A DNA stretch of 64,000 bases from an uncultured Chloroflexia bacterium. Lineage in GTDB: Bacteria; Chloroflexota; Anaerolineae; Anaerolineales; UBA4823. The stretch is from assembly GCA_963706905.1 (NCBI GenBank), contig CAVPNY010000020.1:137859-201858 (forward strand), written 5' to 3'. The position numbers were made by a program, and so were the translations under genes. A model generated the notes under the pieces. It saw only the letters and a program-made list of their open reading frames with translations. It ran no database searches and was not told the origin of the DNA. Positions 8,367 to 34,633 of the stretch are shown piece after piece; position 1 is the stretch's first letter; each line of letters begins with the position of its first letter.

Positions 8367-9023
8367 TTAATTTATCGTGCAGCCCAGGTTATTGTACATG
8401 TCCAGTGTATCTTTGAGCGCCAGCATCTGGGCTCGCGTACCGAGCAGAGCAGTGTTGACCTGGCTGATGATGTCAGCCGCGCTCATCGGATAGTCCACGT
8501 CCGGGTGGGCAGCATTCAGCACCGCGGCAGTGGCCGCGCGCAGCAGGATGCGTGCCGATCCCAGCTTATAGGGCCCGCCCTGGAAGGACAGTGCCTGGAG
8601 TAAAGTCTTGCTATCTAGATTGAATGCATCCGGCACATCAAAAACGTCTTCCACAGTCATGGTAGTCGTGTAACCGGTGACAGCCCAGGCTTTGGGATGG
8701 TTCTTCCAGTAGCCCGGAGTGCAGCCATCCTCGCCTGGGGGCGGGGGAGGTGGGGGCTCGTCGCTGATAATCTTGATATTGTCGATCGCGGCAGAGCCTT
8801 TCAGGTTGACGCGCATGAAGTCGACCCCCGTCACGCCAATTGTTAATACGCCATCAAGACCTTCGCCGACGACCGGAATGGCCACAGTCGCGAGCAGTAT
8901 GCCATCGCCATACAGTTTGATAGTGCCCCCGGCTTCGACAAACTCAACATCCCCAAAGCCGGCAGATGTGCAATAAATGTTGAAGTTGGTTTGATTCAGA
9001 GCGCTGGTTAGTTGGCCATCCAC
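8367..9023 (-). CDS. hypothetical protein with a poly-Pro linker and a C-terminal CTPGYWKNH domain
   Basis: 218-aa ORF. PPPPPPP linker, then GCTPGYWKNHPKAW. No signal peptide. The only start is a GTG fused to GGAGG, so the start is uncertain. Confidence 0.5.
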   Translation of the reverse strand: MDGQLTSALNQTNFNIYCTSAGFGDVEFVEAGGTIKLYGDGILLATVAIPVVGEGLDGVLTIGVTGVDFMRVNLKGSAAIDNIKIISDEPPPPPPPGEDGCTPGYWKNHPKAWAVTGYTTTMTVEDVFDVPDAFNLDSKTLLQALSFQGGPYKLGSARILLRAATAAVLNAAHPDVDYPMSAADIISQVNTALLGTRAQMLALKDTLDMYNNLGCTIN

Positions 9024-9310: not shown

Positions 9311-9895
9311 CTAATGCAAGTTAGCCTGGATAGCCTGGACCAGAACGGCTGGATCGACGTACATGGTGCGGTTGGGATTATCAGGAGCGCCGTAGTCCTG
9401 GATCCAGTGTATCTTCCCGTCTGCCCCGATTAAGATGAATGTATGGCCAGGCTCGCCTGTGTCTATTGCCCATTTGAGCACATCGTAGGCTGCGGAAACG
9501 GCACCATCAGCATCGGTGAGCAGTGGCACATCCCGGATGCCGAACTCGGCGGCAACTTGCTGCAGCTCTTGCGGTGAGTCTTTGGCGATCGATATCAGGT
9601 GAACGCCAGTGTCCTGAAAATCGGGATTGGTTTGCAGATCGACGATCTGCTGGTTGCAGGGTGGTCAGCCATTGGCCATGTGGAAGTAAAGCAATACTGG
9701 CTGGCCCTTATAGCCGGCTAGCGAGATGGTGCGCCCATCAGAAGCCGGCAAGCTGAAATCAGGAGCAGTTGAGCCGACCTGCAGGCTTGCGGGGCTGGCC
9801 TGGGCGCAACTGACCAGGCTGATCAAAGCCAGTACGGCTAGCAGAGTCCAGACCAATGGCTGGAAAACGATTTTTATTTTCGACAAGACATTCAC
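9311..9895 (-). CDS. TlpA/ResA-like thioredoxin-fold lipoprotein with an in-frame TGA in the redox motif (candidate selenoprotein, U-P-P-C)
   Basis: ORFs 9665..9895 and 9311..9529 are in the same frame (585 nt, which is 195 codons). The only interruption is TGA at 9667..9665, giving ..QPVLLYFHMANG[TGA]PPCNQQIVDLQ... Signal peptide with lipobox (LISLVSC). The downstream part is a normal TlpA-like fold. The start (GTG 9895) is uncertain. Confidence 0.7.
9634..9650 (-). promoter_or_regulatory. 17-nt hairpin 14 nt 3' of the in-frame UGA (candidate bacterial SECIS apical stem-loop)
   Basis: Minus-strand RNA reads UGA-N14-GCAGAUC-GUC-GAUCUGC. The stem is a perfect 7 bp and the apical loop contains G and U. 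Confidence 0.4.
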
Positions 9896-9962: not shown

Positions 9963-10448
9963 TCAGGGCTGGGTTGATTGCGCTAACGATCCGTAGCAGA
10001 ATTTATCAACCAGGTTGTTATCATTATCGCGCAGGTAGGCGCAATCGCCGTGATCGTTCCAGACTGGATCATCTAACCCCCAGTAGAGATCCCAGGGCCA
10101 GTTCTGACCTGCTTTGGTCCAGACCTTGACTGTATCATTCGCCATCAGGGAAAAGACTGGGAAGGTATAGACGTTGGCGTTTTCATCGCGCAAAGTCCAA
10201 CCTTCCATCGACTCCAAAGGATCAATATTAATATTCTCGATCTCAACATACTCATCCAACGCGTTCGGCGTGGGTTGATAGTCGATATCGATCAGGTAGA
10301 TGCCTGGAACAGGTGTGGGCGTGGGTTGAATAGGGTAATCAGAGAGGACCACAGGCAGGTAGAAAATCTCTTCCAGGGCGGCGCGCACAACGACCACGCT
10401 TCCCAGGGCGAGCAGCACAGCCAGAAACCATTTCAGGCGTTTGGACAT
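9963..10448 (-). CDS. lamin-tail-domain (LTD) secreted protein, paralog 1
   Basis: N-terminal anchor (LKWFLAVLLALGSVVVV). LTD-like core (EYVEIENINIDPLESMEGWTLRD..VKVWTKAG..PVWNDHGDCAYLRD). ATG 10448 is preferred over TTG 10466. Confidence 0.75.
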   Translation of the reverse strand: MSKRLKWFLAVLLALGSVVVVRAALEEIFYLPVVLSDYPIQPTPTPVPGIYLIDIDYQPTPNALDEYVEIENINIDPLESMEGWTLRDENANVYTFPVFSLMANDTVKVWTKAGQNWPWDLYWGLDDPVWNDHGDCAYLRDNDNNLVDKFCYGSLAQSTQP

Positions 10449-10454
10449 GAGTGA

Positions 10455-10460
10455 ATTATA
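10455..10460 (-). promoter_or_regulatory. TATAAT box 6 nt upstream of the ATG (possible leaderless transcript)
   Basis: The minus strand reads GGTTTATAATTCACTCATG, with no SD. The same arrangement occurs at the paralog (11104-11109). Confidence 0.35.
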
Positions 10461-10539
10461 AACCAACTCAAAGAACCGGCTTCAGATTTCCCAGCTGAAC
10501 TCAGCTCGCACAAACTGCGCGCTCGGGGGAGCTGAAGAT

Positions 10540-11097
10540 TTATGGCGTAGTGACCGGTGGGGCAAAGAAGATCATGCCGAGGATATCGTCTTCAAGGTAG
10601 CAGATCCCGTCGATTCGTTCGCGCGGGTCTTCACCGTTCATCACAAAAGCGCAGTCTTCGTGGTCATTCCAGAATTCATCTTCTCGATTCATGAAGAGAT
10701 CATCAAAGTCATTGCCGCCGGACTTGGTCCAGATCTCCACGATGTCGTCCGTCCCGAGGGTGAACTCGAAGGCGAGGTCGAATTTGTTGCTGGTATCGCT
10801 GGAGATGCGCCAGTTCTCCATGTCGACGGATTCGCTCGACGAGAGGTTCTCCAGGCGGATGAACTCGTTCAAGGGGCCGTTGAAGGGGGCAAAGTCGATT
10901 TCGGTTATGCATACCCCGGAGGTCTTTAATGAGAGACAAGGCGTGTCAGGAGTCATGGAGGGGCTGGGGGTGGGAATGGTGGGATACCCGGAGCGGATAA
11001 CTGGCAGATAGAGCATCTCATCCAGGGCGGCGTTCACAACGATCACGCTTCCCAGGGCAAGCAGCAAGGCTACCAAACATATTCCGCGCTTGGACAT
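10540..11097 (-). CDS. lamin-tail-domain (LTD) secreted protein, paralog 2
   Basis: Signal anchor, PT-rich linker and LTD core (NEFIRLENLSSSESVDMENWRISSD..VEIWTKSGGND..EFWNDHEDCAFV). Confidence 0.75.
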   Translation of the reverse strand: MSKRGICLVALLLALGSVIVVNAALDEMLYLPVIRSGYPTIPTPSPSMTPDTPCLSLKTSGVCITEIDFAPFNGPLNEFIRLENLSSSESVDMENWRISSDTSNKFDLAFEFTLGTDDIVEIWTKSGGNDFDDLFMNREDEFWNDHEDCAFVMNGEDPRERIDGICYLEDDILGMIFFAPPVTTP

Positions 11098-11103
11098 GGG
11101 TAA

Positions 11104-11109
11104 ATTATA
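11104..11109 (-). promoter_or_regulatory. TATAAT box 6 nt upstream of the ATG (possible leaderless transcript)
   Basis: The minus strand reads AGTTTATAATTTACCCATG, with no SD. Confidence 0.35.
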
Positions 11110-11185
11110 AACTAACCCTATGAATCGACCTTGCTGGTTTTTGTGCGAATTCCAATCACACTACTTCAGGATACTGAAGTTTAGG

Positions 11186-13492
11186 TCAGTGCTGGATCAT
11201 GGGTAGATAGTTCGGCCAATATGGCTGTGCCTGGGTGGTCAAGATGGTTCCATAATCTCCTACCAGCCAGCCTTTATTGGGATTTACGAAAGATAATCCC
11301 CGGATGGAGATGCCGGAAACCGAATTCTCCACGGATTTCCAGGAAGTTCCGCCATTATCGGTGTAATAAACCATGCCCTTATCTCCGACCAGCCAGCCGT
11401 TGAGTGCATCCACGAACTGGACATCCTGGAAATCGCCAGAGACATCCATATCCTCCCGAATCTGCCACAGGTCGCCGCCGTTGCTGGTCTGGTAAAGGCC
11501 TTCTCCAGCGATCCAGCCTTTTAGATTGTTGATCATCTCGATGGCATAAAATCGGACTGGGCAGTTTGGCCAGCCACAATCAACGCTTTGTGCAGCCCAG
11601 GATGCTCCACCATCAGAGGTATGGATTACTTTGCCCAGCCCACCGGCAGCCCAGCCATGTTGAGGGTCAGTAAAGTCCAGTTCACCCTGGACATCCGCAT
11701 ATCCAACACTCATCGAACCCGCTACTCCTGTTTGGACCCATTCCCAATGCTCGCCCCCATCTGTGGTGTGGGCAAAATAGGGCTCGGTTTGGTCTGCCAC
11801 TTGGTTGTAATGTCCATCATCCAACGCCCATCCGGTCTGGTTATCAATAAACTGGATGTCAAAGAATTCAGGCTCAAGACCGGTGAATAGTTCTTGCCCT
11901 TGCTCTATCCAATTTTGACCTCCATCTTCGGTATGCAGGATTGCGTATTGGCCAACATCTTCAGAGCGTCCGACCGCCCAGCCATTCAGGCTGTCGGTGA
12001 AATGCAGTCCATCCAATCGGAAAATGCTAAACAAGGCATCTGACAGAGGTGGCTGCTCATATTGAGATTCCCAGGTCTGCCCTCCGTCCGAAGTGGCCAG
12101 GATGATCTGACCTCGATGATCTGGTGCGTAGGTACGACTGCCAACTACCCACCCTAGATGTTCATCTACGAAAAAAACGTCTTCAAAGCGGAAGTGGGTG
12201 TTGAGATAAGCCGTCTCGAACAGGCAATCGCAGTTATTGCACGATGGTTCAGGCGGTGTCCATGCGCATGAATCCCAGGCGCGATCCGTAATCACCCTGT
12301 AATCGTGATCCCCGAGAGCGATCACCTGGTCGGTGGTGATAGCTATCCCATAGAGACCGTCAAGCTCATGAAATTCCATCTTGACCTTTTCCCAGTTATC
12401 GCCGCCGTCCAGGGTACGCCAGACAGGCGGACCCCATGCCCCGATATAGTTTGCCCCGACCGCATAGCCGTGCTGCGAATTAATAAACTGGACATCCCAT
12501 AGCATATCGTAGAAACTGCCTGGCTCTTGACGTTCCCAGGTCTGACCGCCATCCGCGGTGTGAAAGACTGCCCCGCCCGTTTCAGTGCTCAGGGTAAGAA
12601 AACCGACGGCCCACCCGTGAAGAGCGTCGATGAAATCGGCGTTGGTGAGCGAGATCTGCAGATCAGGATTGTATTGCTCGTTCCAGGTCTGGCCACCGTC
12701 GGGGGTATGGTAGACGACGGGATTGTGAATGGGTCTTCCATAAGCATCGTCACCTTCATAATTGACGCCAACCACCCAGCCAGTTTGCAGGTCAATGAAG
12801 TCCAGACCGCGCAGAATGCTGGCTCGTTCCGAGATGTCCAATTCATCCCAGGTAACGCCGCCGTCAGTGGTGCTCCACAGGCTGGCATCCCAGTTATCAG
12901 CGGTCCCCCATACATCATAGTGGGTTGGTTTAATTGATGAAGCCCATCCGTGAAGGTTGTCTGCAAAGGCAACACTTAGGAATTCCTCAGTGGTGCCGCT
13001 GTTCAGGCGGTTCCAATGTTTACCACCATCTCTGGTGCGCAGGATCACCCCCTCTAGGCCCACTGCCCAGCCATGAGTCGCATCTACAAAGTCAACTTCG
13101 TTTAGAATCGCTGTGCTAGGGAGATCCTGGGGGAGCCAGGTTTCCCCGCCGTCGGTGGTCTTAAGGATGGTGCCGACGTAAGCTTTACCTTCTTGATCCC
13201 AATGCGGATAACCAACAGCCCAACCCAGGGTGGAGTTGACAAATTCCAGATCATATATGTAGTATGAGGTTTCTTCGAATTGCTTGATCAAATCATAGCG
13301 ATAACCAGCCAGTGGGAGCGCCGGGGATATAGGTGGGGACGGATGGGTGGAATAGGGACTACGGCGCTCACTCTCGGTCTGGTTCCCAGCCAGCGAGAGA
13401 CTGAAGGGCAGGCAGATGAGCAAACACAAGATAGCCAGAAGGGCAACTTTCCAGACTTTTCTGCGAAAGGATTTGGAAAGGGACGCGTTCAT
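11186..13492 (-). CDS. BNR/Asp-box repeat (sialidase/Ycf48-like beta-propeller) secreted protein
   Basis: 768 aa. SD AAGGAGG. Signal anchor. About 12 Asp-box motifs (TTDGGETW, TRDGGKHW, TTDGGVTW, TPDGGQTW, TADGGQTW, TLDGGDNW, TSDGGQTW, TEDGGQNW, TTDGGEHW, TSDGGASW, ...). Confidence 0.8.
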   Translation of the reverse strand: MNASLSKSFRRKVWKVALLAILCLLICLPFSLSLAGNQTESERRSPYSTHPSPPISPALPLAGYRYDLIKQFEETSYYIYDLEFVNSTLGWAVGYPHWDQEGKAYVGTILKTTDGGETWLPQDLPSTAILNEVDFVDATHGWAVGLEGVILRTRDGGKHWNRLNSGTTEEFLSVAFADNLHGWASSIKPTHYDVWGTADNWDASLWSTTDGGVTWDELDISERASILRGLDFIDLQTGWVVGVNYEGDDAYGRPIHNPVVYHTPDGGQTWNEQYNPDLQISLTNADFIDALHGWAVGFLTLSTETGGAVFHTADGGQTWERQEPGSFYDMLWDVQFINSQHGYAVGANYIGAWGPPVWRTLDGGDNWEKVKMEFHELDGLYGIAITTDQVIALGDHDYRVITDRAWDSCAWTPPEPSCNNCDCLFETAYLNTHFRFEDVFFVDEHLGWVVGSRTYAPDHRGQIILATSDGGQTWESQYEQPPLSDALFSIFRLDGLHFTDSLNGWAVGRSEDVGQYAILHTEDGGQNWIEQGQELFTGLEPEFFDIQFIDNQTGWALDDGHYNQVADQTEPYFAHTTDGGEHWEWVQTGVAGSMSVGYADVQGELDFTDPQHGWAAGGLGKVIHTSDGGASWAAQSVDCGWPNCPVRFYAIEMINNLKGWIAGEGLYQTSNGGDLWQIREDMDVSGDFQDVQFVDALNGWLVGDKGMVYYTDNGGTSWKSVENSVSGISIRGLSFVNPNKGWLVGDYGTILTTQAQPYWPNYLPMIQH

Positions 13493-13810
13493 CGATGCCT
13501 CCTTGTGGCGATATGTTGGTCGGGGAGATTATTGATCACTATACTCCATCACTGTTTGTGATGTCAAGAACAATTGAACCCTCAGCCATATAAGCCAACT
13601 GGAAGCACATAAACTTAATCTTTCTGGCGTTTAAAGACTCCCATACCCACACCTCACTTGCCTCCCCGTTTCTGTCACGCCGGGAGATGATAAAAATGTA
13701 AGAGGTAATTGGACGGTGCTGCCGCTCCATAACTTTCTTTTTAACTCTCTCATTCTCACCCCTTTTCGGAGGGTAGGGCGAGGTCAGGGTTATGCAAGTA
13801 TAAAAACCAG

Positions 13811-13848
13811 AAAGCACCTCCCAAAAGACTAAATTTGGGAGGTGCTTT
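13811..13848. terminator. perfect 15-bp hairpin flanked by T/A runs (bidirectional terminator candidate)
   Basis: AAAGCACCTCCCAAA (13811-13825) / TTTGGGAGGTGCTTT (13834-13848). Followed by TTTC on the plus strand and CTGGTTTTT on the minus strand. Confidence 0.5.
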
Positions 13849-13865
13849 TTTCTGCAGGGAGAGTT

Positions 13866-13920
13866 GTAAAAAAGACCTCGGAAGTTGTTCAAGCCAGCTT
13901 AGCCTGAGACTTCCGAGGTC
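13866..13920 (-). terminator. rho-independent terminator of LTD paralog 3
   Basis: 12-bp stem, GACCTCGGAAGT (13874-13885) / ACTTCCGAGGTC (13909-13920), followed on the minus strand by TTTTTTAC. It lies 16 nt past the stop at 13936. Confidence 0.6.
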
Positions 13921-13935
13921 AGGGGAGCGGGGAAT

Positions 13936-14517
13936 TTACGGTGCGGTAACCGGTGGGGCGAAGAAGATCACGCCGAGGGTGTCATCTGCGCGGAAGCAGA
14001 TGGAATCAACTTTTGCCCTTTCATCGTCAATCACATAGGCGCAGTCTTCGTTGTTGTTCCAGAATTGATCTTCACGATCCATAAAGAGTTCGTCGGTGTC
14101 ATTGTCGCCGGATTTGGTCCAGATCTTTACGGTTTTATCCGACCCGAGGGTGAATGCGAAGTTGATGTCGTATTTATTGCCGCTGTCGCTGGAGATTCGC
14201 CAGTCCTTCATGTCATAGGACTTGCTCGACGAGATGTTCTTCAGGCGGATGAACTCGGTCGAGACGCCGCCTTCGAAATCGATATCGATAATGCACACAC
14301 CAGAGGTCTTCAACGAGAGACAGGGAGTGTCAGGAGTTTTGGTAGGTGTGGGGGTCTTGGTGGGCGTAGGCGTCACGGTGGGCGTGGCGGAGGGCTGGAG
14401 CGGGTAACTGTTGTTCACAATGGGGAGGTAGTTTACGGACAACATGGAGGCGCGGGCAATGATCACCACACCCAGGGTGAGCATCACTGCCACAATCAAC
14501 TTGAGAGTTTTAGACAT
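13936..14517 (-). CDS. lamin-tail-domain (LTD) secreted protein, paralog 3
   Basis: SD AAGGAG. Signal anchor, TPTPTKTPTPTKTP linker and an LTD core closely similar to paralog 2 (TEFIRLKNISSSKSYDMKDWRISSD..VKIWTKSGDND..QFWNNNEDCAYV). Confidence 0.75.
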   Translation of the reverse strand: MSKTLKLIVAVMLTLGVVIIARASMLSVNYLPIVNNSYPLQPSATPTVTPTPTKTPTPTKTPDTPCLSLKTSGVCIIDIDFEGGVSTEFIRLKNISSSKSYDMKDWRISSDSGNKYDINFAFTLGSDKTVKIWTKSGDNDTDELFMDREDQFWNNNEDCAYVIDDERAKVDSICFRADDTLGVIFFAPPVTAP

Positions 14518-31228: not shown

Positions 31229-32011
31229 TTATTTGACGCCAGCCACCTGGGCCTGGCCTGGAGCACCGCGGGCGACGCGCTGGATGACACCGATCGAGAT
31301 CCAGGTCAAAGCAAAGCTAACCACGGCCAGCGCCTGAGGGGTGTAGGCTTGCATGGCGCCGACTTCTTCCATGTAGGGGCCAAATGCATCCCAGTACATC
31401 AGGGAGGCGAAAGTAAACTCGCCCATCACGATGGCAAATGTCAGGAAGACGCCGCTCAGGATAGCCACCCTCAGGTTGGGGAAGATCACACTGAATAGGA
31501 TCGTGCGCGTGCTGGCGCCCAGGCTCTGCGCCGCCTCGGTGAGGGTGCGCACGTCAATGGCGCGCAGCCCGGTGTCGACTGCCCGGTACATGTAGGGAAA
31601 AGACAATGTGACATAGCCAGCGATCAATAAGATCGGGGTTCTGCTCAGCACCAGCGGTGGCCGGCCATAGATACGAAGCAGACCAAAGGCCAGAACCACG
31701 GCTGGCACGACGAATGGCATCAAGGTGATGAACTCCACTACAGGCCGGAGGCGCTTGTAGCGCAGGTGCACAAGGTAGGCGGTTGGCACGATTAACAGCA
31801 AGCTGATGACGATGGTCAGAGCTGCCCAGCCCAGCGAAGCGCCGAAATTTGCATAAAATTCTGGGTCGGAGAAAGCCACCCTATAGGCAGCGAAGGTGTA
31901 CCTGCCCTTGACCATTTTAAGACTGAACTGAAATAATGCGAACAAAGGCAGGAAGAAATAGAGCATCCCGATGATGAAAATTATCCAAGCCCAAATAGAC
32001 CGGGTTTTCAT
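31229..32011 (-). CDS. ABC transporter permease (PotC-like)
   Basis: ATG 32011 overlaps the upstream stop (ATGA). Six-TM MalFGK-type permease. Confidence 0.85.
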   Translation of the reverse strand: MKTRSIWAWIIFIIGMLYFFLPLFALFQFSLKMVKGRYTFAAYRVAFSDPEFYANFGASLGWAALTIVISLLLIVPTAYLVHLRYKRLRPVVEFITLMPFVVPAVVLAFGLLRIYGRPPLVLSRTPILLIAGYVTLSFPYMYRAVDTGLRAIDVRTLTEAAQSLGASTRTILFSVIFPNLRVAILSGVFLTFAIVMGEFTFASLMYWDAFGPYMEEVGAMQAYTPQALAVVSFALTWISIGVIQRVARGAPGQAQVAGVK

Positions 32012-32922
32012 TGTGACCACCTCGAGGCGATCCTTTGCGTGTAAGCATAACCGACCATGCACAGGCTCATGATGACGATCATGCCCAGCGCCAGGGCATT
32101 GCCCAGGCCGGGATCGTAAAGTACATCTCCCTGGATGACAGCGCCAATTAAAATCGTCACCAGATTGATGAAACTACCCGAGAAGGCATAGGCCGTGGCG
32201 TAAGCGCCGAAGGCATTGCCGAATAATAAGATCGTGGTTCCCATGATCGAGGGCAGCAATATAGGTAGAGCGACATGCCGCCAGAACTGGCCGTAGGTGC
32301 CGCCCAGGTTTTCGCAGGCCTCGCGCCACTCGCGGCGCAGGCCATCCAGGGCAGGCGCCATGATCAGCACCATTAAGGGGAACTGGAAGTACATGTAAAC
32401 GATGCTTAATCCCCACATGTTGTAAATCGTGAAACCGGCCTGGTGGATATCGATATTAAAGAGTTCCTCAATCCAGCCGGTCACCAAACCGGCGTTGCCC
32501 ATGGTAGCGATAAAAGCGAAAGCCAGCGGCACACCGGCGAAGTTAGAAGCCACGCCAGAAAAAGTGACCATGAAAACGCGGAAGGGGCCAGGCAGACCGC
32601 CCAGGATCACGGCATAAGCCAGCAAGAAGCCAAACAGGGCGCCACCCAGGGCGGTGACTACGCTGATAACAAGACTGGTCTTATAGGCGTTCATGATATC
32701 GCTGCGGGCGAATAAGTTGATGATATTCTGGAAAGTAAACCCACCGTCAGCGCCTTGAAAGCTACGGATGAAGATCGAGACGGAGGGCAAAAACAAGAAC
32801 ATGATGGCGTATAAGAAAAATGGCACCAATCCCAGCCAGGCCCAGCTGAATTTCTTGGACTGGGGACGCGCCACAGGCGCGTCCCCATCCATGAGCCGGC
32901 TATTAACAGTTCGGCTCGTCAT
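32008..32922 (-). CDS. ABC transporter permease (PotB-like)
   Basis: 304-aa multi-TM protein with an EAA-like loop (LDGLRREWREACENLGG). Confidence 0.85.
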   Translation of the reverse strand: MTSRTVNSRLMDGDAPVARPQSKKFSWAWLGLVPFFLYAIMFLFLPSVSIFIRSFQGADGGFTFQNIINLFARSDIMNAYKTSLVISVVTALGGALFGFLLAYAVILGGLPGPFRVFMVTFSGVASNFAGVPLAFAFIATMGNAGLVTGWIEELFNIDIHQAGFTIYNMWGLSIVYMYFQFPLMVLIMAPALDGLRREWREACENLGGTYGQFWRHVALPILLPSIMGTTILLFGNAFGAYATAYAFSGSFINLVTILIGAVIQGDVLYDPGLGNALALGMIVIMSLCMVGYAYTQRIASRWSQ

Positions 32923-32934
32923 CGTACAATCCTT

Positions 32935-34092
32935 TCATTCACCGTAAACGACTTTGCGCCAGTTCTCAGTGATGTAGGTCTTGGATGCAGTTAGTTCATC
33001 GACAGTCAGGAAGACCGCTTTCTCGTAAACTTGAGCTGGCGGAAGCTTGTCGAGCATCTCCTGTGGGACCACATTGCGCGCTACCATGTCGTTAAAGCGA
33101 ATTGGGTGGGCATAGCCCTTGAGGTAGATATTTTGCCCTTCGTCGCTCATCACAAACTCCCACCACAGGCGCGCCGCCGCCGGGTGCGGGGCATAGGCGC
33201 TGATCCCGCCGATGTACGGGCCAGCTAAGATGCCGGTAGCGGGGACAACAATCTCCAGCTCGGGGTTGCCCGCCAGGGAATCGCGGTTGGCTAGCGCCAA
33301 GTAATCCCATTCCATGACGATGGGAGTCTCGCCCTGGGCGATCTTACCCTGGTCGGCGATCACCGGGATGAAATTACCCGCATCATTCATTTCTTTCCAG
33401 AACTGTAACCCAGCCTCAGGGGCTTTTGCTATATCGCCACCAGTTCGGGAGAGACCCGAAGCCATGACGGTTTGGACAGCCTGGTTGGACTTGAGCACGT
33501 CTCCAGCCATGGCGACCTTGCCCTTATATTCCGGCTTGAGCAGGTCTTCCCAGTCCTGGGGGGTGTTCTCGATGGCGGGCTTGGAGACTTCAAACACCAG
33601 CACGCCGTAATACTCCGCCCACCAGTATCCATCCGCATTTTTTGCACTTTCGGGGATGGTCGCCCAGTCGGCGACTTTGTAAGCGGCGACGACGCCGTCG
33701 GTCACAAGCTGTTCTCCATAGCCCACGCCAACGTCGATCACGTCCGGCGCCTGCGGGCCGCCGCTGTCCTTGTTGGCTTTAATGGCTTCGATTTCGTCCG
33801 CCGAGCCAGCGTCCGGATTGAGTTCATTGACAGTGAGGCCATACTTAGCTTTGAAGGTTTCGATCATTTCCCCATAGTTAGCCCAGTCATGAGGTAAGGC
33901 AATCGTGGTCAGTTGGCCTTCTTCTTTGGCCAGCTTAACCAACTCGTCCATATCCATGGTGAGCGGGAAGGGGGTGGCTTCGGTGGCTGCTGGTGCGCAG
34001 GAGGCTAACAATGCTGCGCCGCCGGTAAGACCAGCCAGTTTTAGGAAATCTCGGCGGGACATACTGCCGATCGGGCGTCTTTCACTAGACAT
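32935..34092 (-). CDS. ABC transporter substrate-binding lipoprotein (family 1, PotD/AfuA-like) with Tat signal
   Basis: SRRDFLKLAGLTGGAALLASC is a twin-arginine signal plus lipobox. ATG 34092 has GGAGG 5 nt upstream. Confidence 0.85.
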   Translation of the reverse strand: MSSERRPIGSMSRRDFLKLAGLTGGAALLASCAPAATEATPFPLTMDMDELVKLAKEEGQLTTIALPHDWANYGEMIETFKAKYGLTVNELNPDAGSADEIEAIKANKDSGGPQAPDVIDVGVGYGEQLVTDGVVAAYKVADWATIPESAKNADGYWWAEYYGVLVFEVSKPAIENTPQDWEDLLKPEYKGKVAMAGDVLKSNQAVQTVMASGLSRTGGDIAKAPEAGLQFWKEMNDAGNFIPVIADQGKIAQGETPIVMEWDYLALANRDSLAGNPELEIVVPATGILAGPYIGGISAYAPHPAAARLWWEFVMSDEGQNIYLKGYAHPIRFNDMVARNVVPQEMLDKLPPAQVYEKAVFLTVDELTASKTYITENWRKVVYGE

Positions 34093-34633
34093 AGGTTCCT
34101 CCATATAGAATAGTTAGATTGAATATTATTCTGTTAAGAATTCTGCAGTAGTTAGGGTGAGCGAAGGAAAAACCACCTCCTTTCAATATTATCTCAAGTT
34201 TTACTTAACCATAGTGAGAATGATTGTATGCTCTCCTGCATACAAAAAATGGTGAGAAAAATCTCCTCACAAGTCTCTTCCAACTAAAGGGTCGAATAGA
34301 GACTTCTTTAGCTTTTGGGTTGATTTCGAGGGGGTAAACCGGGTCAGCATGTGCACAACAGTTTTGGCAAGCGTTCACCCGAAAGGCTGGCTTTGATGGA
34401 TTTTACGACGATGTCAAAAAATGATGATAATTGATTGGTTTTGATTGGGTTAACTTATTTATGGAATTTTAGCATGCAAATTCCTTAAAGTCAAATAAGT
34501 AAGGTCAATTTAAGAATTCATCCACTTTACGTGATTTGACTAAGTGAACTCGTGAGAATTGATTCCTGCTGATGATCAATAGAACCAGAATGCCCAGGTC
34601 GATGACCAACGTGAGGAAATCAAGCCAGCCGAT

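What the first reader, a model, noticed from the sequence alone, without database searches (positions are those of the whole stretch)
9311..9895. In-frame TGA at the nucleophilic position of a thioredoxin-fold CPPC motif: candidate selenocysteine lipoprotein (G-U-P-P-C) with a hairpin 14 nt downstream
Two ORF-track entries (9665..9895 and 9311..9529) lie in one frame and are separated only by TGA (9667..9665). Read-through gives ..KGQPVLLYFHMANG-[TGA]-PPCNQQIVDLQ.. TlpA/ResA-type thiol-disulfide oxidoreductases carry W-C-x-x-C at exactly this place, so the TGA sits on the attacking Cys. UxxC variants of thioredoxin-fold proteins are a known class of bacterial selenoproteins.

The 17 nt at 9650..9634 fold into a perfect 7-bp stem with a GUC loop (GCAGAUC-GUC-GAUCUGC), starting 14 nt after the UGA. 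That position and size fit a SelB-binding apical SECIS hairpin. The protein has a lipoprotein signal (LVSC), so it would be an extracytoplasmic selenoprotein.

The alternative is a TGC/TGT to TGA nonsense mutation producing a pseudogene. I recognised no selA, selB, selD or tRNA-Sec in this window.
Basis: partly seen in the sequence, partly recalled or inferred. Interest (0 to 1): 0.8.

Follow-up and report, generated by a model that had tools for sequence, protein, structure and literature searches.

The report
Unannotated selenocysteine redoxin lipoprotein gene
The in-frame TGA is almost certainly a real selenocysteine codon in a membrane-anchored, thioredoxin-fold redox protein conserved across many Anaerolineae genomes; databases truncate the gene, but it belongs to an already catalogued kind of bacterial selenoprotein.

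Summary
One minus-strand ORF (9895..9311) has a single in-frame TGA (9667..9665) in the motif FHMANG-U-PPC, followed 14 nt later by a perfect 7-bp/GUC-loop hairpin. In 82 of 83 related loci the same codon is TGA; one has TGG and none has Cys. Purifying selection is equal on both sides of it (dN/dS 0.22 and 0.18). TGA is otherwise the commonest stop codon in these genomes, and 19 loci have no start codon from which the C-terminal part could be made separately. The hairpin is selected as RNA: CAG..CTG swaps to CAA..TTG (52 vs 28, no mixed cases), ATC..GAT swaps to GTN..GAC, and the third loop base varies freely. It meets the published bacterial SECIS criteria. More distant full-length homologues carry CxxC at exactly this place (89 of 99). 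The protein has an AhpC/TSA-Redoxin fold closest to ResA/Etrx and BCP, lacks the peroxiredoxin P/T/R triad, and keeps a conserved lipoprotein signal. About a fifth of loci lie next to a His-rich copper-type P-type ATPase. Sec machinery could not be checked in this genome, but cultured Anaerolineae have it. "Prx-like thiol:disulfide oxidoreductase, PF00578, UxxC" is a known predicted selenoprotein class, so this is a new, well-supported member that databases mis-annotate.

The parts
9311..9895 (-). Complete selenoprotein gene: 194 codons plus the TAG stop. GTG start at 9895; an alternative TTG start lies at 9886.
   Evidence: Single frame with one internal TGA. Pfam AhpC-TSA 2.2e-25 (89.5 bits) and Redoxin 1.3e-18 over residues 39-167, spanning the TGA. 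tblastn matches in 80 genomes run through the TGA.
9806..9895 (-). Signal peptide with lipobox L-V-S-C (Cys30): the membrane-anchored, extracytoplasmic lipoprotein signal.
   Evidence: Sequence. A hydrophobic stretch plus lipobox Cys 44-73 residues (mostly 45-50) before the Sec was found in 74 of 83 loci by a strict regex, which missed the window's own L-V-S-C. The AF2 model has low pLDDT for residues 1-38, consistent with a signal peptide and tether.
9665..9667 (-). Sec-encoding UGA (residue 77).
   Evidence: TGA in 82 of 83 related loci, TGG in one, TGC/TGT in none. Aligns with the first Cys of CxxC in Etrx2 and in 89 of 99 Cys homologues.
9656..9667 (-). Redox motif U-P-P-C (residues 77-80).
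   Evidence: Context FHMAxG-U-PPC is near-invariant. C80 aligns with the peroxidatic/resolving Cys position and U with the Thr of PxxxTxxC in the Prx 5enu.
9634..9650 (-). Bacterial SECIS apical hairpin GCAGAUC-GUC-GAUCUGC, embedded in codons (Q)-Q-I-V-D-L-(Q).
   Evidence: Fold. Covariation CAG/CTG 52, CAA/TTG 28, 0 mixed; ATC/GAT 75, GTN/GAC 5; third loop base free. RNAalifold recovers it independently. Pair counts and controls. dS is halved in these codons. Meets the published bSECIS criteria.
9437..9457 (-). Conserved G-E-P-G-H-T-F segment (residues 147-153). The invariant His151 occupies the position of the peroxiredoxin catalytic Arg, next to the probable cis-Pro.
   Evidence: Invariant columns G147 E148 P149 H151 T152 F153. 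H aligns with Arg of 5enu. PGH(T/S)F is kept in the Cys homologues.

Best explanation
Window 9895..9311 (minus strand) is one gene for a roughly 21-kDa precursor selenoprotein.

Recoding step. The UGA at 9667..9665 is decoded as selenocysteine. The mRNA hairpin 14 nt downstream (9650..9634; 6-7 bp stem, G-U-N loop) acts as a bacterial SECIS. By inference it recruits SelB-GTP-Sec-tRNA(Sec) to the ribosome when the UGA reaches the A site.

Product. It is exported and lipid-anchored through Cys30 on the outer face of the cytoplasmic membrane. It folds as an AhpC/TSA-Redoxin thioredoxin fold with the active site U77-P-P-C80 at the start of helix 1.

Most likely chemistry. It works as an extracytoplasmic thiol-disulfide oxidoreductase of the ResA/TlpA/Etrx kind. 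Sec77 is the exposed nucleophile that attacks a substrate disulfide (or sulfenate). Cys80 resolves the mixed selenylsulfide, and the resulting Se-S bond is re-reduced by a membrane electron donor. It is not a canonical peroxiredoxin, because the Pro/Thr/Arg triad is replaced by Met/Sec/His.

Possible substrate context. A recurrent but not universal link to His-rich CPH-type P-type ATPases, YHS-domain kinases and cytochrome c suggests the substrates or conditions relate to copper or heavy-metal stress, or to cytochrome maturation at the membrane surface.

Shown here: the conserved in-frame TGA, the RNA-level selection on the hairpin, the fold, the alignment of U to the CxxC Cys, and the lipobox. 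Inferred: actual Sec insertion, the direction of the redox reaction, the electron donor, and the metal link.
For: - **TGA conservation:** 82 of 83 loci from different species genomes have TGA at this codon in the near-invariant context FHMAxG-U-PPC-xQQIVDL.
- **Translation continues past the TGA:** dN/dS is 0.22 upstream and 0.18 downstream, with saturated dS of about 1.8-1.9. The Pfam domain spans the TGA.
- **No separate C-terminal gene:** 33 of 83 loci have no ATG, and 19 have no start codon at all, in the eight codons after the TGA.
- **Standard genetic code:** TGA ends 16 of 35 long ORFs in the window, 159 of 393 in the flanks, and 21 of the family genes themselves.
- **SECIS:** perfect G-C<->A-U and A-U<->G-C covariation at synonymous sites. 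Leu is CTG/TTG in 80 of 80 (background 55%) and Ile is ATC in 76 of 76 (background 52%), while the third loop base is unconstrained. 96.4% of cells are paired against 10-40% in slid registers, and 0 of 500 shuffles reach the observed covariation. RNAalifold finds the same stem. dS is halved in the SECIS codons. Loop GUN, stem 6-7 bp, 21 nt from UGA to loop, -8.1 kcal/mol: all four published bSECIS criteria are met.
- **Cys homologues:** 89 of 99 full-length homologues at 30-43% identity have CxxC aligned with UxxC.
- **Fold:** the AF2 model has pLDDT above 90 in the domain. Foldseek top hits are Bcp1, LsfA, Etrx2 and ResA, with target-normalised TM of about 0.8.
- **Active-site alignment:** U aligns with the first Cys of WCGPC in Etrx2. 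In the Prx 5enu, Thr, Pro and Arg correspond to U, M and H.
- **Lipobox:** conserved across the family.
- **Sec trait in the class:** Anaerolinea thermophila and Caldilinea aerophila are SelD+ SelA+ SelB+, with 4 and 3 selenoproteins (Peng et al. 2016 Table S1, PMC5029168).
- **Metal context:** the P-type ATPase cluster is present in 18 of 82 loci, mostly same-strand and directly upstream. There is also a YHS kinase (7 loci), cytochrome c (6) and MerR/MerA-like/HMA in L001. The Cys homologue P0139 lies next to a YHS-YHS-ATPase.
Against: - No selA, selB, selD or tRNA-Sec was found in the 64-kb window or in about 1 Mb of homologue flanks, so Sec machinery in this genome is unverified.
- There is no experimental evidence of selenium incorporation.
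- The bare 17-nt hairpin is weaker than -7.5 kcal/mol in 45 of 82 relatives.
- No Rfam SECIS model matches.
- One lineage has TGG (Trp) instead of TGA, which is not the usual Sec/Cys exchange.
- Gene neighbourhoods are mostly variable, and the window's own neighbours (LTD proteins, BNR protein, BrkB, PadR) give no functional hint.
- The REC-GGDEF 'neighbour' cluster may be inflated by generic receiver-domain similarity.
Confidence: 0.9

Rival explanations
1. The gene is a real selenoprotein, but its function is metal handling rather than disulfide exchange. In this reading the U-x-x-C pair plus the invariant His151 (and His72/Met73 in FHMA) bind Cu(I) or Hg(II) at the membrane surface. The protein would be a Sco-like metallochaperone or trap working with the adjacent CopB-type exporter.
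For: - The His-rich CPH-motif P-type ATPase is directly upstream in 8 loci and within 4 kb in 15 of 82 loci. A random 12-kb stretch would be expected to hold one about 1% of the time; this figure is my inference, not a computed value.
- Other metal-related neighbours occur: a YHS-domain kinase, cytochrome c, HMA proteins and the MerR/MerA-like context of L001.
- The Cys homologue P0139 lies beside a YHS-YHS-ATPase.
- There is weak SCO1/SenC similarity (Pfam E 0.0027; PDB Sco1 1on4 E 6e-5).
- His replaces the Prx Arg near the active site and is invariant, including in the Cys homologues.
- Several metal-handling proteins (MerP, CopZ-family, cation ATPase, mercuric reductase) are already predicted selenoproteins.
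Against: - Sco proteins use CxxxC; this family has UxxC spacing.
- The SCO1-SenC Pfam score (18.1) is below its cutoff of 22.8.
- About 80% of loci, including the window, have no metal gene nearby.
- No coordinates were available to check that His151 lies within bonding distance of U77/C80.
Confidence: 0.25
2. The gene is a real selenoprotein that acts as a peroxidase, in other words an atypical peroxiredoxin in which Sec77 or Cys80 reduces peroxides at the cell surface.
For: - The best Pfam family is AhpC/TSA.
- The best PDB sequence hit is an alkyl hydroperoxide reductase, 5enu.
- The Foldseek top hits are Bcp1, LsfA and Bcp4.
- Public annotations call the fragments 'peroxiredoxin' or 'AhpC'.
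- Sec is an excellent peroxide-reducing residue (established chemistry of GPx and PrxU).
Against: - The defining Prx active site PxxxTxxC plus Arg is not present. Pro is replaced by Met73, Thr by Sec77 and Arg by His151.
- NCBIfam thiol-peroxidase models are far below cutoff (55 vs 140, 29 vs 270 for PrxU).
- The motif is CxxC-type, as in ResA/Etrx.
Confidence: 0.12
3. The UGA is read through or recoded as a standard amino acid (Trp, Cys or Gly) without the Sec machinery, and the hairpin acts only as a read-through stimulator.
For: - Sec machinery is not demonstrated in this genome.
- One lineage has TGG = Trp at the site.
- Some gene callers translated the TGA as W under code 4 (P0001).
Against: - TGA is the most used genuine stop codon in the window and flanks, and it terminates 21 family genes.
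- The site corresponds to a catalytic Cys in 89 of 99 homologues, where Trp or Gly would be inactive.
- The hairpin matches the SelB-type bSECIS consensus in loop sequence (G-U), size and spacing.
- In the TGG lineage the stem has decayed, as expected if the stem serves Sec insertion.
- Cultured Anaerolineae have SelA/SelB/SelD.
Confidence: 0.04
4. The gene is a pseudogene produced by a TGC/TGT->TGA nonsense mutation, or it is two separate small genes.
For: Gene callers split it into a 76-aa and a 72-115-aa ORF.
Against: - The same TGA is present in 82 of 83 loci from different species.
- dN/dS is 0.18 downstream of it.
- No locus has TGC/TGT.
- 19 loci have no start codon after the TGA.
- The single thioredoxin-fold domain spans the TGA.
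Confidence: 0.01

Closest known systems
Prx-like thiol:disulfide oxidoreductase selenoproteins (PF00578, UxxC/UxxU; 'Prx-like 1' of the GOS study; exemplar WP_010940744.1 from Geobacter), and the 'Redoxin family protein' selenoprotein (PF08534, UxxC; HEU0032618.1)
   Same: AhpC/TSA-Redoxin thioredoxin fold. Sec occupies the first position of a UxxC motif that is CxxC in Cys homologues. An in-ORF bacterial SECIS hairpin follows. The family is predicted bioinformatically and its function is unknown.
   Different: This is a distinct subfamily at the sequence level, and no NCBIfam model reaches its cutoff. It has the signature FHMAxG-U-PPC-xQQIVDL...GEPGHTF and a conserved lipoprotein signal. It is confined mainly to Anaerolineae/Chloroflexota, with some Acidimicrobiia. 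The close family is essentially obligately Sec, with no Cys form among the 83 loci examined.
ResA / TlpA / CcmG / StoA and pneumococcal Etrx1/Etrx2 (extracytoplasmic membrane-anchored thioredoxins)
   Same: Membrane-tethered or lipoprotein thioredoxin-fold reductases that act outside the cytoplasm. U aligns with the nucleophilic first Cys of WCxxC. Structural TM is about 0.8 to ResA and 0.68-0.74 to Etrx2.
   Different: Sec replaces Cys. The Trp before the motif is Gly. His151 sits next to the probable cis-Pro. The ResA NCBIfam score is 53.8 against a cutoff of 170. No ccdA/resBC neighbours were identified.
BCP/PrxQ and 1-Cys peroxiredoxins; the Sec-containing peroxiredoxin PrxU
   Same: They give the best overall sequence and fold similarity. 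PrxU shows that this fold can use Sec.
   Different: Prx and PrxU have T-x-x-C/U with Pro and Arg. In this family Sec occupies the Thr position, and Pro and Arg are replaced by Met and His. PrxU scores 29 bits against a cutoff of 270.
E. coli fdhF / Moorella fdhA-type bacterial SECIS elements
   Same: A hairpin inside the coding sequence shortly after the UGA, with a small apical loop that begins G-U. Spacing is within 16-37 nt.
   Different: This is a minimal 6-7 bp perfect stem with a 3-nt loop and no bulged U. It is encoded by a conserved Q-I-V-D-L peptide, and no Rfam model matches it.

Membership tests
Bacterial selenoprotein gene (Sec-UGA plus bSECIS) | In-frame UGA conserved in orthologues, with coding constraint on both sides | tested here: met
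   TGA in 82 of 83 loci. dN/dS is 0.22 upstream and 0.18 downstream.
Bacterial selenoprotein gene (Sec-UGA plus bSECIS) | Downstream stem-loop meeting the bSECIS consensus: loop 3-9 nt with G in position 1-2, stem 4-16 bp, 16-37 nt from UGA to loop, MFE <= -7.5 | tested here: met
   Window hairpin: loop GUC, 7 bp, 21 nt, -8.1 kcal/mol. Covariation supports it. The 17-mer alone passes the MFE criterion in only 37 of 82 relatives.
Bacterial selenoprotein gene (Sec-UGA plus bSECIS) | Cys-containing homologues with Cys aligned to the Sec position | tested here: met
   89 of 99 full-length representatives have CxxC aligned to UxxC.
Bacterial selenoprotein gene (Sec-UGA plus bSECIS) | selA, selB, selD and tRNA-Sec present in the same genome | not testable with these tools
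The cultured Anaerolineae A. thermophila and C. aerophila are SelD+/SelA+/SelB+.
Bacterial selenoprotein gene (Sec-UGA plus bSECIS) | Selenium incorporated in the protein (75Se labelling or mass spectrometry) | not testable with these tools
   This requires an experiment.
Prx-like thiol:disulfide oxidoreductase selenoprotein (PF00578, UxxC) | Significant PF00578 (AhpC/TSA) domain | tested here: met
   89.5 bits against a cutoff of 26, E = 2.2e-25.
Prx-like thiol:disulfide oxidoreductase selenoprotein (PF00578, UxxC) | UxxC redox motif at the CxxC position | tested here: met
   U-P-P-C; alignments.
Prx-like thiol:disulfide oxidoreductase selenoprotein (PF00578, UxxC) | Orthology to the catalogued exemplars (WP_010940744.1, HEU0032618.1) | not tested
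   The exemplar sequences could not be retrieved with the tools.
Peroxiredoxin (Prx/BCP) | Active-site P-x-x-x-T/S-x-x-C plus the conserved Arg | tested here: not met
   Aligned to 5enu, Pro is replaced by Met73, Thr by Sec77 and Arg by His151. NCBIfam peroxidase models are below cutoff.
ResA/TlpA/Etrx extracytoplasmic thioredoxins | CxxC at the helix-1 N-terminus, with an exposed first Cys | tested here: met
   U aligns with the first Cys of WCGPC in 2yp6. The helix starts at the motif in the AF2 model (H82-92 of P0001).
ResA/TlpA/Etrx extracytoplasmic thioredoxins | Membrane anchor or lipoprotein signal placing the domain outside the cytoplasm | tested here: met
   A lipobox was found in at least 74 of 83 loci, and the window has L-V-S-C.
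ResA/TlpA/Etrx extracytoplasmic thioredoxins | Family model score above the curated cutoff | tested here: not met
   ResA NF002854 scores 53.8 against 170, and TlpA NF047696 scores 18.3 against 230.
Sco1/SenC copper chaperones | CxxxC motif plus a distal His ligand; Pfam PF02630 above cutoff | tested here: not met
   The spacing is UxxC, not CxxxC. PF02630 scores 18.1 against 22.8. A conserved His is present, but its geometry was not checked.
SelL-related redox protein (NF040769) | Model score above cutoff | tested here: not met
   35.1 bits against 120.

The most novel reading that the evidence does not exclude
The family is a selenium-dependent partner of CopB-type copper exporters in monoderm Chloroflexota and Acidimicrobiia. 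In this reading it is a surface-anchored U-x-x-C/His protein that either captures exported Cu(I) (or Hg(II)) as a Sco-like selenolate chaperone, or repairs copper-catalysed mis-oxidation of exported proteins. That would tie selenium nutrition directly to copper tolerance. The obligate use of Sec (no Cys form among close relatives) would then reflect a chemical requirement for metal affinity or for resistance to over-oxidation outside the cell.
Probability: 0.2. Interest if true: 0.6.

Novelty: new member of a known kind. Interest (0 to 1): 0.35.

Why it matters
There are three practical consequences.

1. **Annotation.** A protein found in many uncultured Anaerolineae genomes is systematically mis-annotated. 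The genome scan gave 196 matching stretches, and all 80 kept carry TGA. Databases list 113-117-aa 'peroxiredoxin', 'AhpC' or 'redoxin domain' fragments plus orphan 60-90-aa N-terminal pieces. In some cases the TGA is translated as Trp under code 4. A curated model with a Sec flag would correct hundreds of entries.

2. **SECIS benchmark.** The family is a clean natural example of a minimal bacterial SECIS embedded in a conserved peptide, with perfect synonymous-site covariation. That makes it useful for testing SECIS predictors and for SelB-specificity studies outside Proteobacteria and Firmicutes.

3. **Biology.** It adds an extracytoplasmic, lipid-anchored selenoprotein to the redox toolkit of Chloroflexota, with a testable link to copper or heavy-metal export.

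It does not change the concept of what bacterial selenoproteins are.

Tried and rejected
- **Second selenoprotein in the window.** The best candidate was the TGA at 32937 (-), in the context KVVYGE-U-KDC, joining 392-aa and 308-aa stretches. It is simply the stop codon of an ABC substrate-binding protein, followed in the same frame by the permease start MTSRT.
- **Sec machinery.** ARAGORN found no tRNA-Sec in the window or in 60 loci. Regex scans for SelA (SGDKLLGGPQ), SelD (GxGC/UxxK) and SelB (GHVDHGKT) signatures in the window and about 1 Mb of flanks gave only spurious hits.
- **Rfam.** There was no hit at gathering threshold over the whole window, and at E<=10 over 9500-9750 only a meaningless miRNA hit appeared.
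- **UGA-containing mini-hairpin.** RNAalifold proposed one (columns 7-9 / 15-17 of A2). Its pairs are forced by the Gly and Pro codons and 12 of 82 are broken, so I do not claim it.
- **Structure prediction of the window protein with U->C.** I modelled the 58%-identical relative P0001 instead.
- **REC-GGDEF neighbour.** The cluster is present in 36 loci but directly adjacent in only 9. Single-linkage clustering on a generic receiver domain probably inflates it, so I do not use it for function.
- **Contexts of Cys homologues P0158 and P0143.** The contigs were short or uninformative.
- **Source organism.** Identical proteins occur in JGI metagenome 3300027897, an ENA assembly and a Logan assembly, but no taxon name was obtained.
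- **Haft & Tolstoy 2025 paper.** It is not held in the library. deep-Sep 2025 does not mention this family.
Full report
**1. The observation**

On the minus strand a single reading frame runs from GTG at 9895 to TAG at 9313..9311, with one internal TGA at 9667..9665. The read-through product is 194 residues and contains ...KGQPVLLYFHMANG-[TGA]-PPCNQQIVDLQ....

The 17 nt at 9650..9634 (GCAGAUC GUC GAUCUGC) begin 14 nt after the TGA. They form a perfect 7-bp stem with a 3-nt loop in both the MFE and the centroid structure, at -8.1 kcal/mol for the 17-mer alone. The N-terminus has a hydrophobic signal sequence ending in the lipobox L-V-S-C (Cys30).

The window contains no tRNA, no Rfam family at gathering threshold and no SelA/SelB/SelD signature motifs.

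Taken alone, the hairpin is only mildly unusual. 28 of 2298 TGA trinucleotides in the window (1.2%) are followed by a perfect hairpin of at least 7 bp that satisfies the same loop and spacing rules. The 71-nt region does not fold better than shuffled controls (z = -0.37).

**2. What the protein is**

With Cys substituted for the TGA, the product matches Pfam AhpC/TSA (E 2.2e-25, 89.5 bits) and Redoxin (1.3e-18) over residues 39-167, so the domain spans the TGA. No NCBIfam model reaches its cutoff. The best are thiol peroxidase (55 vs 140), ResA (54 vs 170), SelL-related (35 vs 120) and PrxU (29 vs 270).

Against PDB sequences the best hits are an AhpC/TSA protein (5enu) and the pneumococcal surface lipoprotein thioredoxin Etrx2 (2yp6/4hqz). 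The printed alignments are informative:
- Against Etrx2, the TGA aligns with the first Cys of W-C-G-P-C and Cys80 with the second.
- Against the peroxiredoxin 5enu, the Prx motif P-x-x-x-T-x-x-C corresponds to M73-x-x-x-U77-x-x-C80, and the catalytic Arg corresponds to His151.

The family therefore has a CxxC-type active site and lacks the Prx Pro/Thr/Arg triad.

An AlphaFold2 model was made of the 58%-identical full-length relative P0001. The model is confident in the domain (pLDDT about 90-97 for residues 41-197) and disordered in the signal and tether region. Foldseek against the PDB returns Bcp1, LsfA, Bcp4, Etrx2 and ResA at E around 1e-10, with target-normalised TM of about 0.8.

**3. 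The TGA is conserved, not a lesion**

A search of 5.8 billion proteins returned 318 hits. Almost all were 113-117 aa long and began 'MQQIVDL...', which is the first Met after U-P-P-C. Only two were full length. In P0001 the 'W' is a TGA translated under code 4. P0002 has a true TGG.

A scan of one genome per GTDB species gave 196 matching stretches. The best 80 were fetched with flanks. They come mostly from Anaerolineae/Anaerolineales/Chloroflexota MAGs, and several long contigs are binned as Actinomycetota/Acidimicrobiia.

Counting the window and two metagenome contigs, 82 of 83 loci have TGA at the homologous codon, one has TGG, and none has TGC or TGT. The context FHMAxG-U-P(P/A/H/D)C-xQQIVDL is nearly invariant.

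Three results exclude a pseudogene:
- Pairwise NG86 estimates give dN/dS 0.22 for the 44 codons before the TGA and 0.18 for the part after it, with dS near saturation.
- TGA is an ordinary and frequent stop codon in these organisms. It ends 16 of 35 long ORFs in the window, 159 of 393 in the flanks, and 21 of the family genes themselves. The genetic code is therefore standard and the internal TGA is context-specific.
- A separately initiated C-terminal protein is excluded. 33 of 83 loci (the window included) have no ATG in the eight codons after the TGA, and 19 have no start codon of any kind there. The thioredoxin fold would also be cut in two.

**4. The hairpin is selected as RNA**

The stem lies in the codons Q-I-V-D-L, so protein conservation alone could produce a conserved palindrome. 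The synonymous sites decide the question:
- The Gln third base pairs with the Leu first base. The counts are CAG/CTG 52 and CAA/TTG 28, with no mixed combinations.
- Leu is CTG or TTG in 80 of 80 carriers, against 55% in the rest of the same genes.
- Ile is ATC in 76 of 76, against a background of 52%.
- Asp is GAT whenever the partner codon is ATC (75 loci), and GAC whenever Ile is replaced by Val GTN (5 loci). That is an A-U to G-C compensatory change.
- The third base of the loop codon GTN is unconstrained (T 32, G 31, C 15, A 3).

RNAalifold on a gapless 82-sequence alignment (A2) recovers the same stem, with pair 30-40 as GC 53 / AU 29 and pair 31-39 as AU 77 / GC 5, none broken. For the 7-bp stem, counting identical rows once (80 distinct sequences), the formal pair count gives 96.4% of cells paired, against 10-40% in registers slid by 1-3 nt. 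It gives 34 cells with changes on both sides, against 10.4 +/- 2.1 in shuffles, and 0 of 500 shuffles reach the observed covariation. The seventh, outermost pair is formed in 66 of 80 sequences, so the core is 6 bp.

The synonymous rate in the 12 codons after the TGA is half that of the rest of the gene (dS 0.93 vs 1.8-1.9). The single TGG lineage is the only locus using TTA for the Leu, which weakens the stem. That is the pattern expected if the stem exists for decoding the UGA.

The published consensus for bacterial SECIS elements is a loop of 3-9 nt with G in the first or second position (usually followed by G or U), a stem of 4-16 bp, 16-37 nt between UGA and loop, and MFE <= -7.5 kcal/mol (review PMC13188914). 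The window's element has loop G-U-C, 7 bp, 21 nt and -8.1 kcal/mol. In relatives with A-U substitutions the bare 17-mer is weaker (median -6.3; 37 of 82 pass the energy criterion). The hairpin is still part of the MFE fold of the UGA..+50 context in 69 of 82.

**5. Cys homologues**

An exhaustive HMMER search of 1.84 billion cluster representatives with P0001 found 151 proteins at E <= 1e-10. Besides C-terminal fragments and N-terminal fragments ending exactly at the Gly before the TGA, there are about 100 full-length proteins at 30-43% identity. In a MAFFT alignment, 89 of 99 have C-x-x-C exactly at U-x-x-C, with consensus LYFxEGxxCxPCWxQ, and they keep the PGH(T/S)F segment. This meets the classical criterion that Sec aligns with a redox-active Cys in homologues. 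Neither the Sec form nor the Cys form has a curated NCBIfam model.

**6. Sec machinery**

This is the one requested test that I could not do for this genome. The window and about 1 Mb of homologue flanks contain no tRNA-Sec or sel genes, and these genes are normally unlinked to selenoprotein genes.

The literature shows the trait in the lineage. Chloroflexi were already listed with selenoproteins in 2006 (PMC1794560). Table S1 of Peng et al. 2016 (PMC5029168) scores Anaerolinea thermophila UNI-1 and Caldilinea aerophila as SelD+, SelA+ and SelB+, with 4 and 3 selenoproteins. An Anaerolinea sp. MAG is among the carriers (L046).

**7. Function**

A signal peptide with a lipobox Cys 44-73 residues (mostly 45-50) before the Sec is conserved. 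The domain is therefore tethered to the outer face of the cytoplasmic membrane.

Given the CxxC-type site, the absence of the Prx triad, and the ResA/Etrx similarity, the most likely chemistry is disulfide (selenylsulfide) exchange. Sec77 would be the attacking nucleophile and Cys80 the resolving residue. This is an inference from established thioredoxin-fold mechanisms.

Gene neighbourhoods vary, and the window's own neighbours are uninformative: three lamin-tail-domain proteins, a BNR/Ycf48-like protein, BrkB and PadR. One association does recur. A His-rich P-type ATPase with a CPH motif (CopB-like) occurs in 18 of 82 loci. It is mostly on the same strand, ending just before the gene, and it is within 4 kb in 15 loci.

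Other metal-related neighbours also occur:
- YHS-domain histidine kinases (7 loci) and cytochrome c (6 loci).
- In L001, MerR, an HMA-containing MerA-like reductase and an HMA protein.
- The Cys homologue P0139 lies two genes upstream of a YHS-YHS-P-type ATPase.

This suggests a role connected to copper or heavy-metal stress, or to metal delivery. The link covers only about a fifth of loci, so I hold it at low confidence.

**8. Comparison with what is known, and novelty**

The catalogues of prokaryotic selenoproteins already list three relevant entries:
- 'Prx-like thiol:disulfide oxidoreductase (PF00578; UxxC, UxxU)', predicted in 2004.
- 'Prx-like 1' (pfam00578, UxxC), with 225 sequences and 2,740 Cys homologues in the GOS data.
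- 'Redoxin family protein (PF08534, UxxC)' (PMC13188914, PMC9312934, PMC2398784).

By the field's domain-plus-motif classification this gene belongs to that kind, and extracytoplasmic thiol-oxidoreductase selenoproteins (DsbA-like, DsbG-like, thiol:disulfide interchange protein) are also catalogued. It is therefore not a new type of system.

What is specific here:
- It is a well-delimited subfamily in Anaerolineae, extending to Acidimicrobiia, with its own signature and lipoprotein anchor.
- The close family uses Sec exclusively.
- Its minimal SECIS is unusually clean and covaries.
- Public annotation misses it everywhere I looked. The fragments are called 'peroxiredoxin', 'AhpC' or 'redoxin domain-containing protein'. 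On a JGI contig carrying this stretch of the window, only the 72-aa C-terminal piece of the gene is called.

I could not retrieve the catalogue exemplars to test whether one of them is this exact subfamily.

**9. Verdict**

The probability that this is a genuine Sec-decoding gene is about 0.9 or higher. The residual doubt is the unverified machinery and the lack of any experiment. The specific biochemical role is inferred: oxidoreductase is most likely, and metal-handling or peroxidase roles are possible. Novelty is 'new member of a known kind', and interest is moderate to low (0.35). The main values are annotation repair, a SECIS benchmark, and a testable selenium-copper link.

Noticed in passing
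L001:2474-3028 (GCA_004566075.1, contig SMUX01365537.1): This is the only non-TGA member. It has TGG (G-W-P-S-C) at the Sec position and a decayed SECIS stem (CAG ATC GTG GAT TTA). It lies between MerR plus an HMA-MerA-like reductase and cytochrome c plus an HMA protein. Three near-identical proteins from other samples exist. A Sec-to-Trp replacement, rather than Sec-to-Cys, at a catalytic position is unusual and unexplained.
   Followed up: partly
L064/L065 (same 1.5-Mb contig CAWBYY010000011.1); L057/L059; L030/L053; L025/L055: Several genomes carry two paralogous Sec-containing copies of the family, each with its own TGA and hairpin.
   Followed up: no
L050, L070, L010, L072, L074, L077: The family also occurs on long contigs (up to 1.6 Mb) binned as Actinomycetota/Acidimicrobiia. 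These copies have the variant MADG-U-PPC and an A.G mismatch at the outermost stem pair (CAA...GAA). This suggests spread beyond Chloroflexota. Short contigs binned as Methanosarcinales, Nitrosomonadaceae and Planctomycetales are probably mis-binned.
   Followed up: no
L073:3737-5929 and 17 other loci (upstream of the selenoprotein gene): A His-rich N-terminus, CPH-motif P-type ATPase (CopB-like) lies immediately upstream on the same strand in many loci. YHS-domain histidine kinases (for example L044:3915-4958) and cytochrome c genes (for example L014:5400-6191) also recur.
   Followed up: partly
window 9963-14517 (-): Three paralogous secreted Lamin-Tail-Domain proteins (9963-10466, 10540-11097, 13936-14517) flank a 768-aa BNR/Ycf48-like repeat protein (11186-13492). 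This is a cluster of secreted proteins of unknown role directly upstream of the selenoprotein gene.
   Followed up: partly
window 8367-9023 (-): The 218-aa ORF directly downstream of the selenoprotein gene has a poly-Pro linker (PPPPPPPG) and no Pfam match.
   Followed up: no
window 32008-34104 (-): An ABC substrate-binding protein and its permease share a reading frame across a TGA stop in a U-x-x-C-like context (GE-TGA-KDC). This is a false-positive pattern for selenoprotein scans.
   Followed up: yes
L002:258-851 (ENA ERZ23498868) and P0001: A public gene call translated the in-frame TGA as Trp. The likely cause is selection of a code-4 model for a short contig, which produced a spurious full-length 'G-W-P-P-C' protein in the databases.
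   Followed up: yes
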